A stretch of DNA of 64,000 nucleotides, taken from assembly GCF_009931435.1 (NCBI RefSeq), contig NZ_CP043414.1. One strand, 5' to 3'. Position 1 is the stretch's first letter. The number at the start of each line of letters is the position of its first letter. This DNA is from Escherichia coli (GTDB lineage Bacteria; Pseudomonadota; Gammaproteobacteria; Enterobacterales; Enterobacteriaceae). Shown here one piece after another: positions 32,001-35,000 of this stretch. Made by a program: the position numbers.

Positions 32001-35000
32001 CAACCAGGCGGCCTGAACACCACGTCGGTGAAAAGTGGGCAACAATGGGATGCGCCAAACGGCTGGGCACCGTTGCAGTGGGTCGCGACAGAAGGATTAC
32101 AAAACTACGGGCAAAAAGAGGTGGCGATGGACATTAGCTGGCACTTCCTTACCAATGTTCAGCACACCTATGACCGGGAGAAAAAGCTGGTGGAAAAATA
32201 TGATGTCAGCACCACCGGAACAGGGGGCGGCGGTGGCGAATATCCATTACAGGATGGCTTTGGCTGGACCAATGGTGTGACGCTAAAAATGCTGGATTTG
32301 ATCTGCCCGAAAGAGCAACCATGTGACAATGTTCCGGCGACGCGTCCACTCAGTGAATCAACAACACAGCCGGTAAAACAAAAAGAGGCGGAACCTACGC
32401 CTTAACTTTACTGTATATCGAGCAATGCCATTACGTGCATAAAATTGGCATTGCTCTTTCTTCATCACGAAATACCACTCTTTCTACAGTCTATGCCTTT
32501 ATTTTCTTTTATTAGGGAAGATTTTAATTTTATTTTATCAACTTGTTAATCATTACACCTCTATTTATATTTTCCCCCACTCCCCATTCTCCCTGACAAT
32601 TTTCTTGTGGAACAAAGTGTTATTTAAGAAACAAGCAAATCATTCTGTCTCTTTAGACAAATTTTGACATCAAACATGATCTTTTTCGCTATATGTGTAA
32701 GTATATAGCGGTTTTAATTATCAGGATATTACTTATGTCACTAACCAGACGGAGGTTTACACAGATTCTTGCGTCGACATTGTTCCTGCATCATCTGCCG
32801 TCCTTTGCACAATCAGTCAAATTCTGGGCCTCACTGACGCTTCCCGAAGCCCAAAACATTACACGCATCGTCAGCGCAGGCGCGCCCGCCGATTTACTAT
32901 TGCTGGCTGTCGCGCCAGAAAAAATGGTCGGTTTTTCCTCTTTTGATTTTGCCCGTCAGGCATTAATTCCATTGCCAGAGCACATTCGCCAGTTCCCCAG
33001 GCTGGGACGACTCGCCGGGCGCGCCAGCACACTCTCGCTGGAAGGGCTTATGGCATTACATCCCGATTTGGTCGTTGATTGCGGCAATACGGATGAAACC
33101 TGGATCTCCCAGGCACGGCAGGTTAGCGAACAGACACAAATACCCTGGTTATTGCTTAACGGGAAACTGGAACAATCAGCAGAACAGTTAACAACGCTTG
33201 GCAAAACGTTAGGCGAAGAGCACCGCGCCGCAGAACAAGCCAATCTCGCCAGCCGCTTCGTTGGTGAAGCTCAGGCATTCGCCACCTCACCCGCCGCTAA
33301 CCTCAGCTTTTATGCTGCGCGCGGTCCTCGAGGGCTGGAAACGGGCTTACAGGGTTCGTTGCATACCGAGGCGGCGGAATTATTAGGTTTGCACAACGTC
33401 GCGCAAATAGCCGATCGCCACGGTCTGACACAGGTTTCCATGGAAAATCTCCTGCGCTGGCAGCCGGATATTATTCTGGTTCAGGAGGCCGTTACTGCAG
33501 ATTTTATTCGTCGTGATCCTCTCTGGCAGGGCGTGAAAGCGGTTGCGGAACAACGCATCTTATTTTTAAGTGGCCTGCCCTTTGGCTGGCTGGATGCCCC
33601 GCCGGGAATCAACCGTCTTCTGGGATTACGCAGACTTCACGCCTGGCTGGATCCCGCCATCAATCGCCAGTTTAAAAGTGACATGCAGCATTACGCCCAA
33701 CTGTTCTGGCATTGTTCACTCAGTGACGCCGACTATCAAAAATTGGTGGCGAGCTAATGAGAACCGTAAACGGATGTATTTTGCTGCTGGCAGCTATCAG
33801 TATCACTTTTGCCGCCGTAAGTGGGGCTTATCATCTCGATATACAGCAACTGCTGGCGCTCATTCTTCGTCAAGAAAATGTTCCTGTGCAGGAACAAATT
33901 GTCTTCTGGCAAATCCGCGTGCCGCGTATTCTTGCTGCGCTGTTTCTGGGCGCGGCGCTGGCAGGGGCCGGAACCACCTATCAGGGAATGTTCCGTAATC
34001 CCTTAGTGTCACCGGATATTTTAGGCGTCTCCGCCGGTGCCGGACTTGGTGCCTGCGCGGCAATCCTGTGGGGATTATCCATTGTTTACATCCAGCTGTA
34101 CGCATTTTGCGGCGGGCTGATGGTGGTCGCGGGCGTCTGGTTGATTACGCGTCGGGTGACCCGCCACGATCCGATCTTAACCCTGGTGCTGGTAGGCATT
34201 GCGTTAGGAACGTTGTGCGGAGCGGGGATATCGCTAATAAAAACGCTGGCCGATCCTTACACCCAGTTACCGTCAATTACCTTCTGGTTGCTGGGGGGGC
34301 TGTCCACCGTGACCTTACGCGATCTCTGCTATGCTGCACCGATCATTCTCATAGGCTCCTTGCCCCTGTTTTTTCTCCGCTGGCGCATGAATTTACTCAC
34401 GCTTTCCGACGACGAAGCCCATTCGCTGGGACTGAACGTGACACGTCTGCGCTTTGGATTAATTGTCTGCGCCACACTCATCACCGCCAGCACGGTAGCA
34501 ATAGCGGGCATAATTGGTTGGGTCGGCCTGGTCGTTCCGCACATTGCCCGCTTGTTGACCGGTCATAACCATCAGCAGCTGTTGCCCATGGCAATGTGTA
34601 CTGGCGCGATTCTGCTCCTGCTTACCGATACGCTGGCACGCAGCATTGGAACAACAGAAATCCCACTTGGCATTCTGACCGCTTTTGTTGGTGCACCGTT
34701 TTTCCTGTTTTTGTTGTTACGCGGAGGTCGCCAGTGACTTTGCTTGCCGTCCGTCATGCGTCTCTGGGTTACTCCCGCCATCCGGTGCTACGCGACGTGT
34801 CCTTCACCCTGTCGCAAGGAACAATTTGTTGTCTGTTAGGAGCCAATGGTTGCGGCAAAACCACACTCATGCGCTCCATTCTTGGTGTTATACCGTTATT
34901 AAAAGGCGAGATCTTACTGGATAGCCTCCCTGTGCAGACACTCAGCCATCGCCAGCGCGCGCAGGCTATTGCCTGGGTGCCGCAGGCGCACGACGGCATT

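What the first reader, a model, noticed from the sequence alone, without database searches (positions are those of the whole stretch)
32735..32830. Twin-arginine (Tat) signal on the ABC substrate-binding protein
The binding protein begins MSLTRRRFTQILASTLFLHHLPSFA-QS, which fits the S/T-RRxF Tat motif followed by a hydrophobic core and an AxA-type cleavage site. Tat export of a FecB/BtuF-type binding protein usually signals that it folds or binds a cofactor in the cytoplasm, which is a clue to the nature of the cargo.
Basis: partly seen in the sequence, partly recalled or inferred. Interest (0 to 1): 0.35.

Follow-up and report, generated by a model that had tools for sequence, protein, structure and literature searches.

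The report
Tat signal on Mo-regulated binding protein
The binding protein of an accessory E. coli ABC importer does carry a conserved twin-arginine (Tat-type) export signal, which is ordinary for this protein family; the better clue to its cargo is a conserved molybdenum-regulator (ModE) binding site just upstream.

Summary
ATG 32735 opens a 340-aa Peripla_BP_2 binding protein that starts MSLTRRRFTQILASTLFLHHLPSFA|QS. This is also RefSeq's start, and it has a Shine-Dalgarno sequence.

The Tat reading is well supported:
- In homologues down to about 38% identity, the two arginines are the only conserved residues of the signal region.
- RR-bearing members of the family have much less hydrophobic signal peptides than their Sec or lipoprotein relatives.
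- Tat export is therefore likely, but it is untested. The curated Tat-signal HMMs miss this sequence, as they miss E. coli FhuD and the validated Tat substrate P. aeruginosa FepB.

FhuD and FepB are cofactor-less members of the same family.

The cargo clue lies elsewhere:
- A near-perfect ModE operator sits at 32687-32710 and is conserved across genera.
- ModD is encoded in the operon.
- The permease is closest to H. influenzae MolB.
- There is no Fur box.

So the "iron" transporter is probably a molybdate-repressed Mo/W uptake system that works with a TonB-dependent receptor. In this strain the receptor gene is broken by a deletion of about 1 kb. This is a new member of a known kind, of modest interest.

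The parts
32687..32710 (+). ModE-operator-like inverted repeat CGCTATAT-N8-ATATAGCG, 25-48 nt upstream of the start codon
   Evidence: Perfect 8+8 inverted repeat. It has 15 of 16 specified bases of the E. coli ModE core CGNTATATA-N6-TATATANCG (consensus from PMC545781). It is the only match in the 64-kb window at <=3 mismatches, where 0.17 are expected by chance. The box is conserved at -38 to -50 in O157:H7, Citrobacter, Serratia and Shewanella at 15-16 of 16.
32723..32727 (+). Shine-Dalgarno sequence (AGGAT) of the binding-protein gene
   Evidence: Read from the sequence. CAGGAT is also present upstream of the Citrobacter orthologue.
32735..32809 (+). Signal peptide, 25 codons: MSLTRRRFTQILASTLFLHHLPSFA. 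The twin arginines R5 and R6 are encoded at 32747-32752. Predicted cleavage is after A25.
   Evidence: R5/R6 are 94%/98% conserved. Peak hydrophobicity is low, 1.48. The AlphaFold model gives a helix at residues 5-18, pLDDT below 50 at 22-24, and a folded domain from about residue 30.
32810..33757 (+). Mature periplasmic substrate-binding protein (Peripla_BP_2, class III/cluster A fold), stop codon included
   Evidence: PF01497, E = 8e-17. Model pLDDT 88.7. Foldseek gives 4PAG at TM 0.79 and MolA 3PSA at TM 0.67.
33757..34737 (+). FecCD-family (type II ABC importer) permease. Its start overlaps the binding-protein stop (TAATG).
   Evidence: PF01032, E = 2.7e-89. The best solved relative is H. 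influenzae HI1471 (MolB) at 1.5e-64, ahead of HmuU, FhuB and BtuC. The overlap is seen.
34734..35492 (+). ABC transporter ATP-binding protein
   Evidence: PF00005. Coordinates come from the RefSeq annotation of L002 mapped onto the window.
35502..36314 (+). Class I SAM-dependent methyltransferase of unknown substrate
   Evidence: Methyltransf_25/31. Only weak NCBIfam hits, all below cut-off. The gene is conserved in the cluster in Citrobacter, Serratia, Shewanella and L007.
36311..37165 (+). ModD (quinolinate-phosphoribosyltransferase-like protein linked to molybdenum transport loci)
   Evidence: TIGR01334 modD, 498.9 bits against a cut-off of 178.85. QRPTase_N/C domains. The PDB relatives are all QPRTases.
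37191..38164 (+). TonB-dependent receptor gene, disrupted here. An internal deletion of about 997 bp has its junction near 37701-37711. The reading frame is lost after residue 174 and a stop follows at 37820. The C-terminal remnant runs to 38164.
   Evidence: The window aligns to L002 in two blocks, with L002 bases ~6813-7798 (inside the 1971-nt gene) missing. A Plug domain is present in the remnant. The same junction occurs in only 9 of 2149 island-bearing genomes.

Best explanation
The gene at 32735-33757 encodes the periplasmic binding protein of a type II (MolBC/BtuCD-like) ABC importer. It is made with a short, weakly hydrophobic twin-arginine signal peptide (MSLTRRRF...SFA|QS).

The most likely mechanism runs in three steps. 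The precursor folds in the cytoplasm. TatBC recognises it through T-R-R-x-F and the Tat translocase exports it. Signal peptidase I then cleaves it after A25. All three steps are inferred. The Tat signal is a trait of a whole proteobacterial clade of these binding proteins. As with FhuD and P. aeruginosa FepB, it reflects the folding or export properties of the protein, not a cofactor or cargo loaded in the cytoplasm.

The operon is SBP, permease, ATPase, SAM-methyltransferase, ModD and a TonB-dependent receptor. It sits behind a conserved ModE operator, so it is probably repressed by molybdate-bound ModE and serves uptake of molybdenum or tungsten, either as the oxyanion or as a chelate. It is probably not an iron system. 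In this strain the outer-membrane receptor gene is inactivated by a deletion.
For: Signal peptide:
- Sequence and start codon.
- R5/R6 are 94%/98% conserved, while the rest of the signal peptide drifts.
- RRx[FLIVM] is present in 98 of 100 homologues at >=45% identity but in 6 of 69 below 38%, where Sec or lipoprotein signals take over.
- Within the family, RR goes with low h-region hydrophobicity: 1.89+-0.30 against 2.73+-0.46 and 2.90+-0.47 (Mann-Whitney p = 4e-22). The query scores 1.48. It lies in the E. coli Tat range and below every Sec reference tested.
- Many orthologues have Arg in the c-region (LLLRHLPAFA).
- The TatP regex is met.
- A clade member, P0124, passes Pfam TAT_signal (26.6 bits against a 22.7 cut-off).
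- Precedents in the same Pfam family are FhuD and validated PaFepB.

Molybdenum link:
- ModE box at 15-16 of 16 bases upstream of the SBP gene in five taxa, and upstream of receptor genes in four loci.
- No Fur box above chance: best 13 of 19, reached by 123 of 500 shuffles.
- ModD is an equivalog-level hit.
- The permease is closest to MolB, and the SBP model's closest characterised fold is MolA.
- Related loci sit next to a formate-dehydrogenase-like molybdoenzyme operon, a TOBE/Mop gene and a MOSC gene.
Against: - No export experiment exists and no dedicated predictor could be run.
- Pfam PF10518 and NCBIfam TIGR01409 give no hit on this signal. The same models also miss FhuD, PaFepB and the Citrobacter orthologue, so the negative result is weak.
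- The signal is short (25 aa). It has T-Q where the consensus has L-K, and the E. coli version has no basic c-region residue.
- According to the TatP paper, the RR expression alone also matches 7% of Gram-negative Sec signal peptides.
- Some E. coli RR signals are reported to tolerate Sec export (AmiA, AmiC, SufI, cited in PMC8262268).
- The molybdenum assignment is regulatory and contextual only. The SBP is just 20% identical to MolA, and ligand-binding residues were not compared.
Confidence: 0.7

Rival explanations
1. The RR motif is tolerated but not used. The protein is exported unfolded by Sec, or by both pathways, and the signal only resembles a Tat signal.
For: - The curated Tat HMMs do not recognise it.
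- The signal is only 25 aa long, and the E. coli version has no Sec-avoidance charge in the c-region.
- The TatP regex alone has a 7% false-positive rate on Gram-negative Sec signals.
- Some native E. coli Tat signals are reported to allow Sec export.
Against: - Near-invariance of both arginines over wide divergence is hard to explain if they are not read.
- Peak hydrophobicity of 1.48 is below every Sec reference tested, whose minimum is 1.92.
- Non-RR homologues of the same family have much more hydrophobic signals.
- FhuD and validated PaFepB are missed by the same HMMs.
Confidence: 0.2
2. The true start is the upstream in-frame ATG at 32693 (MCKYIAVLIIRILLMSLTRRRF...). The RR motif would then lie after a first hydrophobic stretch and would not form a Tat n-region.
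For: The mechanical ORF list starts at 32693.
Against: - No Shine-Dalgarno sequence precedes 32693, whereas AGGA precedes 32735.
- 32693 lies inside the conserved ModE-like operator.
- The codon is ATA in O157:H7, where the nearby ATG is out of frame and is followed directly by TAA.
- PGAP starts at the 32735 equivalent.
- Orthologues in other genera start M-x-x-[ST]-RR.
Confidence: 0.03
3. One reading: Tat is used because the binding protein picks up a cofactor or its ligand in the cytoplasm, so the pathway reveals the cargo.
For: Most E. coli K-12 Tat substrates (19 of 28) bind cofactors (PMC6085387). The locus is linked to molybdenum.
Against: - The Tat-exported members of the same family, FhuD and PaFepB, have no cofactor.
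- An import binding protein that was loaded before export would work against uptake (inference).
- No cofactor-binding domain is found beyond Peripla_BP_2.
- The model is an ordinary two-lobe class III SBP.
Confidence: 0.05
4. The locus is an iron or siderophore uptake system, as it is annotated ('iron ABC transporter substrate-binding protein'), and the ModE-like repeat is incidental or is a terminator-like hairpin.
For: - RefSeq product names.
- The family neighbours are FecB, FepB and IsdE, weakly and below cut-off.
- The receptor has generic siderophore/heme-type TBDR hits below cut-off.
- The pattern scan also flags 32686-32711 as terminator-like.
- One locus (L007) has a Fur-family gene downstream.
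Against: - No Fur box above chance in the window or in three orthologous upstream regions.
- The repeat matches the ModE consensus at 15-16 of 16 bases in five taxa whose flanking sequence is otherwise unalignable. It recurs in front of receptor genes.
- The hairpin has only 3 G-C pairs.
- ModD, MolB-like permease, TOBE, MOSC and FDH context.
Confidence: 0.12

Closest known systems
E. coli / Salmonella FhuD (ferric-hydroxamate binding protein with an RR signal)
   Same: Same Pfam family (Peripla_BP_2), partner of a type II ABC importer, and works downstream of a TonB-dependent receptor. Its signal has the same S/T-RRR core (ISRRRLL against LTRRRFT) and low hydrophobicity (1.76 against 1.48). 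It is listed among cofactor-less Tat substrates. It is likewise missed by PF10518 and TIGR01409.
   Different: A distant paralogue: NF010649/FhuD-type models hit only weakly. FhuD carries ferric hydroxamates under Fur control. Here there is a ModE box and no Fur box.
Pseudomonas aeruginosa FepB PA4159
   Same: A Peripla_BP_2 binding protein with a short 25-aa RR signal (MPTRRRSALPLLALALSLFATLAAA). It was validated experimentally as a Tat signal by the amidase reporter, and no cofactor is predicted (PMC6085387).
   Different: Its cargo is ferric enterobactin. It belongs to a different clade, and no ModE or ModD context is reported.
Haemophilus influenzae MolBC-A (HI1470/71/72), low-affinity molybdate/tungstate importer
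   Same: The permease is the best solved relative (1.5e-64). MolA is the closest characterised fold to the SBP model (TM 0.67) and a sequence hit (1.2e-7). Transcription of molB is repressed by molybdate (PMC4031551).
   Different: The SBP is only about 20% identical to MolA, and the sequence match covers just part of it. The E. coli cluster adds a TonB-dependent receptor and a methyltransferase. MolA's own signal type and its binding residues were not examined here.
PDB 4PAG, solute-binding protein of Sulfurospirillum deleyianum (structural genomics)
   Same: Closest solved structure by sequence (1e-25, residues 36-335) and by fold (TM 0.79-0.83, 25% identity).
   Different: The entry description retrieved names no ligand or function. 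Its signal and genomic context were not examined.

Membership tests
Twin-arginine (Tat) signal peptide | Consensus S/T-R-R-x-F-L-K with an almost invariant RR pair in the n-region | tested here: met
   T4-R5-R6-R7-F8-T9-Q10 gives five of seven consensus positions. The TatP expression RR.[FGAVML][LITMVF] is matched. RR is 94%/98% conserved in the clade.
Twin-arginine (Tat) signal peptide | An h-region less hydrophobic than in Sec signals | tested here: met
   The peak 10-residue Kyte-Doolittle score is 1.48, against 1.77+-0.35 for Tat references and 2.61+-0.30 for Sec references. Within the family it is 1.89 for RR-bearing signals and 2.73/2.90 for non-RR and lipoprotein signals.
Twin-arginine (Tat) signal peptide | Recognition by curated Tat-signal profiles (Pfam PF10518, NCBIfam TIGR01409) | tested here: not met
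   No hit at E <= 10. In the controls, HybO, SufI, EfeB and MdoD hit, while FhuD, PaFepB and the Citrobacter orthologue do not. Clade member P0124 scores 26.6 bits, above the 22.7 cut-off.
Twin-arginine (Tat) signal peptide | Basic residue in the c-region (Sec avoidance) and a signal peptidase I site | tested here: inconclusive
   S-F-A|Q satisfies the -3/-1 rule. The E. coli c-region has His-His but no Lys or Arg, whereas many orthologues have Arg (LLLRHLPAFA).
Twin-arginine (Tat) signal peptide | Export depends on TatABC and on the RR pair | not testable with these tools
   This needs fractionation in a tat mutant or reporter fusions.
Peripla_BP_2 / class III (cluster A) substrate-binding protein | PF01497 domain and a two-lobe fold joined by a long rigid helix | tested here: met
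   PF01497 at 61.9 bits against a 27.5 cut-off. Model pLDDT is 88.7, with a long helix at residues 162-183. All top Foldseek hits are class III SBPs.
MolBC-A-type molybdate/tungstate importer | Type II permease most similar to MolB (HI1471) | tested here: met
   2NQ2 chain A at 1.5e-64, ahead of HmuU at 2.7e-49 and BtuC at 4.5e-41.
MolBC-A-type molybdate/tungstate importer | Binding protein orthologous to MolA and binding molybdate/tungstate | tested here: inconclusive
   Only a partial sequence match (1.2e-7, residues 214-287) and TM 0.67 at 20% identity. Ligand residues were not compared and binding cannot be tested here.
ModE regulon | Operator matching ATCGNTATATA-N6-TATATANCGAT close to the promoter | tested here: met
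   32687-32710 matches 15 of 16 core bases and is unique in the window. The box is conserved in five taxa and before receptor genes. The consensus is from PMC545781.
ModE regulon | ModE binding and molybdate-dependent repression | not testable with these tools
   This needs EMSA or footprinting, and expression assays with and without molybdate and in a delta-modE strain.

The most novel reading that the evidence does not exclude
The 'iron ABC transporter' island found in about 40% of E. coli, and its relatives in Citrobacter, Salmonella, Klebsiella, Serratia, Yersinia and Shewanella, may be a ModE-repressed, TonB-dependent, high-affinity route for molybdenum or tungsten. The metal would be taken up as a chelate (a 'molybdophore' or host/microbiota-derived complex), not as the free oxyanion. 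The Tat-exported binding protein would act as the periplasmic shuttle. ModD (QPRTase-like) and the SAM-methyltransferase would process or release the imported ligand in the cytoplasm. This would be an outer-membrane-to-cytoplasm Mo/W acquisition pathway for Enterobacterales that none of my literature searches turned up.
Probability: 0.3. Interest if true: 0.65.

Novelty: new member of a known kind. Interest (0 to 1): 0.3.

Why it matters
On its own, the Tat signal adds one strain-variable candidate to the E. coli Tat substrate list. It is absent from K-12 and from a 25-protein TatP-based list for an ExPEC strain, although whether that strain carries the island was not checked. It also shows that Tat targeting is a clade-wide trait of one branch of class III binding proteins.

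Two practical points follow:
- The product name 'iron ABC transporter substrate-binding protein' is probably misleading. Regulation and context point to molybdenum or tungsten.
- Molybdoenzyme-dependent respiration drives Enterobacteriaceae blooms in the inflamed gut. An accessory, ModE-controlled, TonB-dependent Mo/W uptake system present in about 40% of E. coli genomes would therefore be worth testing.

The Tat dependence would also tie this uptake system to the same export pathway that most molybdoenzymes use.

Tried and rejected
- Curated Tat-signal HMMs (Pfam PF10518, NCBIfam TIGR01409) on the N-terminus gave no hit. Controls showed that the models also miss FhuD and validated PaFepB, so I did not treat this as evidence for Sec.
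- The strict TatP regex under-counts the clade, because many orthologues read RRxFA. I recounted with RRx[FLIVM].
- Fur box search: nothing above shuffled expectation.
- Rfam scan of the window: no riboswitch, Moco motif included, near the operon.
- Sigma-70 scan: no promoter called next to the operator. A perfect TTGACA at 32664-32669 is visible, but I could not pair it with a convincing -10 element, so I make no promoter claim.
- Literature. Studholme & Pau 2003 (PMC317290) and Tirado-Lee 2011 (PMC3258573) are not held. Searches for the island, ModD plus TonB, and molybdophores found no paper on this E. coli locus. The APEC receptor paper PMC6979363 could not be linked to this receptor. 'delta-modD' in PMC7549933 appears to be a typo for mdoD.
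- The intact receptor from a sister strain matches no NCBIfam equivalog above cut-off and no PDB sequence at 1e-10, so it gives no cargo clue.
- I did not apply the TATFIND rules, because I could not verify them from a held source.
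Full report
WHERE THIS IS

The window is E. coli chromosome. dhaR, dhaKLM and treA lie upstream, and ymgE, ycgR, emtA and ldcA lie downstream. Between treA and ymgE sits a six-gene accessory cluster:
- a Peripla_BP_2 binding protein (32735-33757);
- a FecCD permease (33757-34737);
- an ABC ATPase (34734-35492);
- a class I SAM methyltransferase (35502-36314);
- ModD (36311-37165);
- a TonB-dependent receptor (from 37191).

A megablast of 32400-38700 finds at least 80% of it in 2139 of 5426 complete E. coli genomes. The other genomes match only the ymgE/ycgR end. RefSeq calls the first gene 'iron ABC transporter substrate-binding protein'.

THE OBSERVATION

The one formal doubt is an in-frame ATG 14 codons upstream, at 32693, which the mechanical ORF list uses. 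I reject that start for these reasons:
- AGGA lies 8 nt before 32735, and nothing comparable precedes 32693.
- PGAP annotates the 1023-nt CDS from the 32735 equivalent in other strains.
- The 32693 ATG lies inside a conserved operator-like repeat.
- In O157:H7 that codon is ATA, and the neighbouring ATG is out of frame and is followed directly by TAA.
- Orthologues in Escherichia, Citrobacter, Salmonella, Klebsiella, Cedecea, Serratia, Yersinia and Shewanella all begin M-x-x-[ST]-R-R.

IS IT A TAT SIGNAL?

Motif. T-R-R-R-F fits S/T-R-R-x-F. RRRFT fits TatP's default expression RR.[FGAVML][LITMVF], which the TatP paper says covers 97% of its training set. The same expression also hits 7% of Gram-negative Sec signals (PMC1182353), so the motif alone is not enough.

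Conservation. In a 49-sequence alignment reaching 33% identity, R5 and R6 are 94% and 98% conserved. They are the only conserved columns before the mature domain, and their neighbours are 20-59% conserved. The third arginine of the E. coli protein is the variable 'x' position (M, T, L, V or S in relatives).

Across all full-length homologues retrieved from two database searches, RRx[FLIVM] is present as follows:

| Identity to the mature domain | Homologues with RRx[FLIVM] |
|---|---|
| >=45% | 98 of 100 |
| 38-45% | 17 of 22 |
| <38% | 6 of 69 |

Below 38%, ordinary Sec signals and lipoboxes take over.

Hydrophobicity. Tat h-regions are less hydrophobic than Sec ones (stated in PMC1182353).

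| Set of signal peptides | Peak 10-residue Kyte-Doolittle score |
|---|---|
| Query | 1.48 |
| 14 E. coli Tat signals, copied from PMC7549933 | 1.77 +- 0.35 |
| This family, RR-bearing (n = 94) | 1.89 +- 0.30 |
| This family, no RR and no lipobox (n = 42) | 2.73 +- 0.46 |
| This family, lipoprotein (n = 28) | 2.90 +- 0.47 |

The within-family comparison is the cleaner control (Mann-Whitney p = 4e-22). The sequences are related, so this p-value overstates independence. Even so, RR and low hydrophobicity travel together, which is what a real Tat/Sec switch predicts.

Negative result. Pfam TAT_signal and NCBIfam TIGR01409 do not hit the query. I ran controls. The models detect HybO, SufI, EfeB and MdoD. 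They miss FhuD, the experimentally validated P. aeruginosa FepB signal and the Citrobacter orthologue. A more distant clade member (P0124, MAINRRQFLK...) passes Pfam's cut-off. The E. coli signal is therefore an off-consensus Tat signal of the FhuD/FepB sort, not a disproved one.

Cleavage. S-F-A|Q obeys the -3/-1 rule. Ala at -1 and a small residue at -3 recur in orthologues. The AlphaFold model (pLDDT 88.7) has a helix at residues 5-18, its lowest confidence at 22-24, and the folded domain from about residue 30.

I put Tat export at about 0.7 and Sec or dual export at about 0.2.

WHAT THE TAT SIGNAL DOES AND DOES NOT SAY

- FhuD is on the standard E. coli and Salmonella lists as a molybdopterin-independent Tat substrate (PMC7549933; PMC8262268).
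- P. aeruginosa FepB, with a very similar 25-aa signal (MPTRRRSALPLL...), was validated with the amidase reporter, and 'None predicted' is entered for its cofactor (PMC6085387).
- That paper also notes that only 68% of E. coli K-12 and half of P. aeruginosa Tat substrates carry cofactors.
- No domain other than Peripla_BP_2 is present.
- The model is an ordinary two-lobe class III binding protein whose neighbours are 4PAG, MolA, TM0189, YiuA, heme and siderophore binders.

WHAT DOES POINT TO THE CARGO

Twenty-five nucleotides upstream of the start codon there is a perfect inverted repeat, CGCTATAT-N8-ATATAGCG (32687-32710). The E. coli ModE consensus is ATCGNTATATA-N6-TATATANCGAT (PMC545781). 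The window site matches 15 of the 16 specified core bases. It is the only site in 64 kb within three mismatches, where 0.17 are expected by chance.

The box recurs at the same place upstream of the orthologous genes, although the surrounding intergenic sequence is otherwise unalignable:

| Locus | Core bases matched | Distance from the start codon |
|---|---|---|
| O157:H7 | 16/16 | -48 |
| Citrobacter | 15/16 | -50 |
| Serratia fonticola | 15/16 | -44 |
| Shewanella fodinae | 16/16 | -38 |

Further boxes sit directly in front of the receptor genes in Shewanella (16/16), L007 (15/16), L008 (16/16) and Serratia (14/16).

The best Fur-box match is 13 of 19, a score reached by 123 of 500 shuffles. 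The orthologous regions score 10-11 of 19.

Other links to molybdenum:
- ModD is an above-cut-off hit to TIGR01334.
- The permease's best solved relative is H. influenzae MolB (1.5e-64). MolB belongs to the MolBC-A molybdate/tungstate importer, whose transcription is repressed by molybdate (PMC4031551).
- MolA is the closest characterised structure to the binding-protein model.
- Related RR-bearing loci sit next to a formate-dehydrogenase-like molybdopterin enzyme operon (L008), a TOBE/Mop gene (L010) and a MOSC-domain gene (L005).
- The cluster SBP-permease-ATPase-MTase-ModD-TBDR is conserved in Citrobacter at the same treA/ymgE site, and in Serratia and L007. Shewanella has it without ModD.

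I conclude, with roughly 0.75-0.8 confidence, that the operon belongs to the ModE regulon and serves Mo/W acquisition. The presence of a TonB-dependent receptor, ModD and a methyltransferase leaves open that the substrate is a complexed form and not the bare oxyanion. That part is speculation.

STATE OF THE LOCUS IN THIS STRAIN

The receptor gene is broken. The window aligns to a 99.6%-identical sister strain in two blocks, and about 997 bp inside the 1971-nt gene are missing. The junction lies near 37701-37711, at a short imperfect repeat. The reading frame is lost after residue 174 and a stop follows at 37820. Only 9 of 2149 island-bearing genomes share a contiguous junction. The binding protein, permease, ATPase, methyltransferase and ModD genes are intact.

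COMPARISON WITH WHAT IS KNOWN, AND NOVELTY

As a Tat-signal-bearing class III binding protein, this is a new member of a known kind, alongside FhuD and PaFepB. As a transporter, it resembles MolBC-A with an added outer-membrane receptor and two cytoplasmic enzymes.

Membership of a 'MolA orthologue' group is not established. Identity is 20% and the sequence match is partial.

I found no paper on this E. coli island in the held library. The key ModE-site survey (Studholme & Pau 2003) is not held, so I cannot exclude that the operator was already listed there.

VERDICT

- Observation: confirmed.
- Interpretation: partly supported. The Tat signal is real, but the link to a cofactor or the cargo is not.
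- Interest in the Tat signal itself is low to modest. The neighbouring ModE operator is the more useful lead.

Noticed in passing
window 32687-32710: Near-perfect ModE operator (CGCTATATGTGTAAGTATATAGCG) 25 nt upstream of the binding-protein start. It is conserved upstream of orthologous operons in four other taxa. No Fur box is present, so the 'iron' product name is probably wrong.
   Followed up: yes
window 37191-38164 (junction about 37701-37711): The TonB-dependent receptor gene carries an internal deletion of about 997 bp at a short imperfect repeat. The frame is lost after residue 174. Only 9 of 2149 island-bearing complete E. coli genomes have the same contiguous junction.
   Followed up: yes
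window 32406-38200; L001, L002, L003: The six-gene cluster is an accessory island between treA and ymgE. It is present in 2139 of 5426 complete E. coli genomes and sits at the same site in Citrobacter. In O157:H7 ATCC 35150 the methyltransferase is annotated as a pseudogene (internal stop) and treA as frameshifted.
   Followed up: partly
L005 12491-12514; L006 11752-11775; L007 11579-11602; L008 4878-4901: Second ModE boxes (14-16 of 16 bases) lie directly upstream of the TonB-dependent receptor genes of related loci. In the E. coli window the ModD-receptor gap is only 25 nt and holds no box.
   Followed up: partly
L008 457-4463; L010 784-990; L005 14556-15197: Related RR-bearing binding-protein loci are adjacent to a formate-dehydrogenase-like molybdopterin oxidoreductase operon, to a 68-aa TOBE (Mop-like) gene whose end overlaps the binding-protein gene start, and to a MOSC-domain gene.
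   Followed up: no
window 35502-37165: A SAM-methyltransferase and ModD (QPRTase-like) are translationally coupled (their genes overlap by 4 nt) and are conserved within the transport operon. This suggests cytoplasmic processing of an imported heterocyclic or carboxylate ligand. Their substrates are unknown.
   Followed up: no
window 32420-32456: An 11-bp perfect inverted repeat (GAGCAATGCCA ... TGGCATTGCTC) followed by a T-rich tract lies just after the treA stop. It is probably the treA terminator.
   Followed up: no
window 32664-32669: A perfect -35 hexamer, TTGACA, lies 17 nt upstream of the ModE box. The box would then cover the -10/start region, as a repressor site would. No convincing -10 element was found and the promoter scan did not call it.
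   Followed up: partly
window 8085-8150, 8621-8686 (-), 54370-54448 (-): Rfam gathering-level hits: two rdlD antitoxin RNAs (ldr/rdl type I toxin-antitoxin repeats) and the C0299 sRNA.
   Followed up: no
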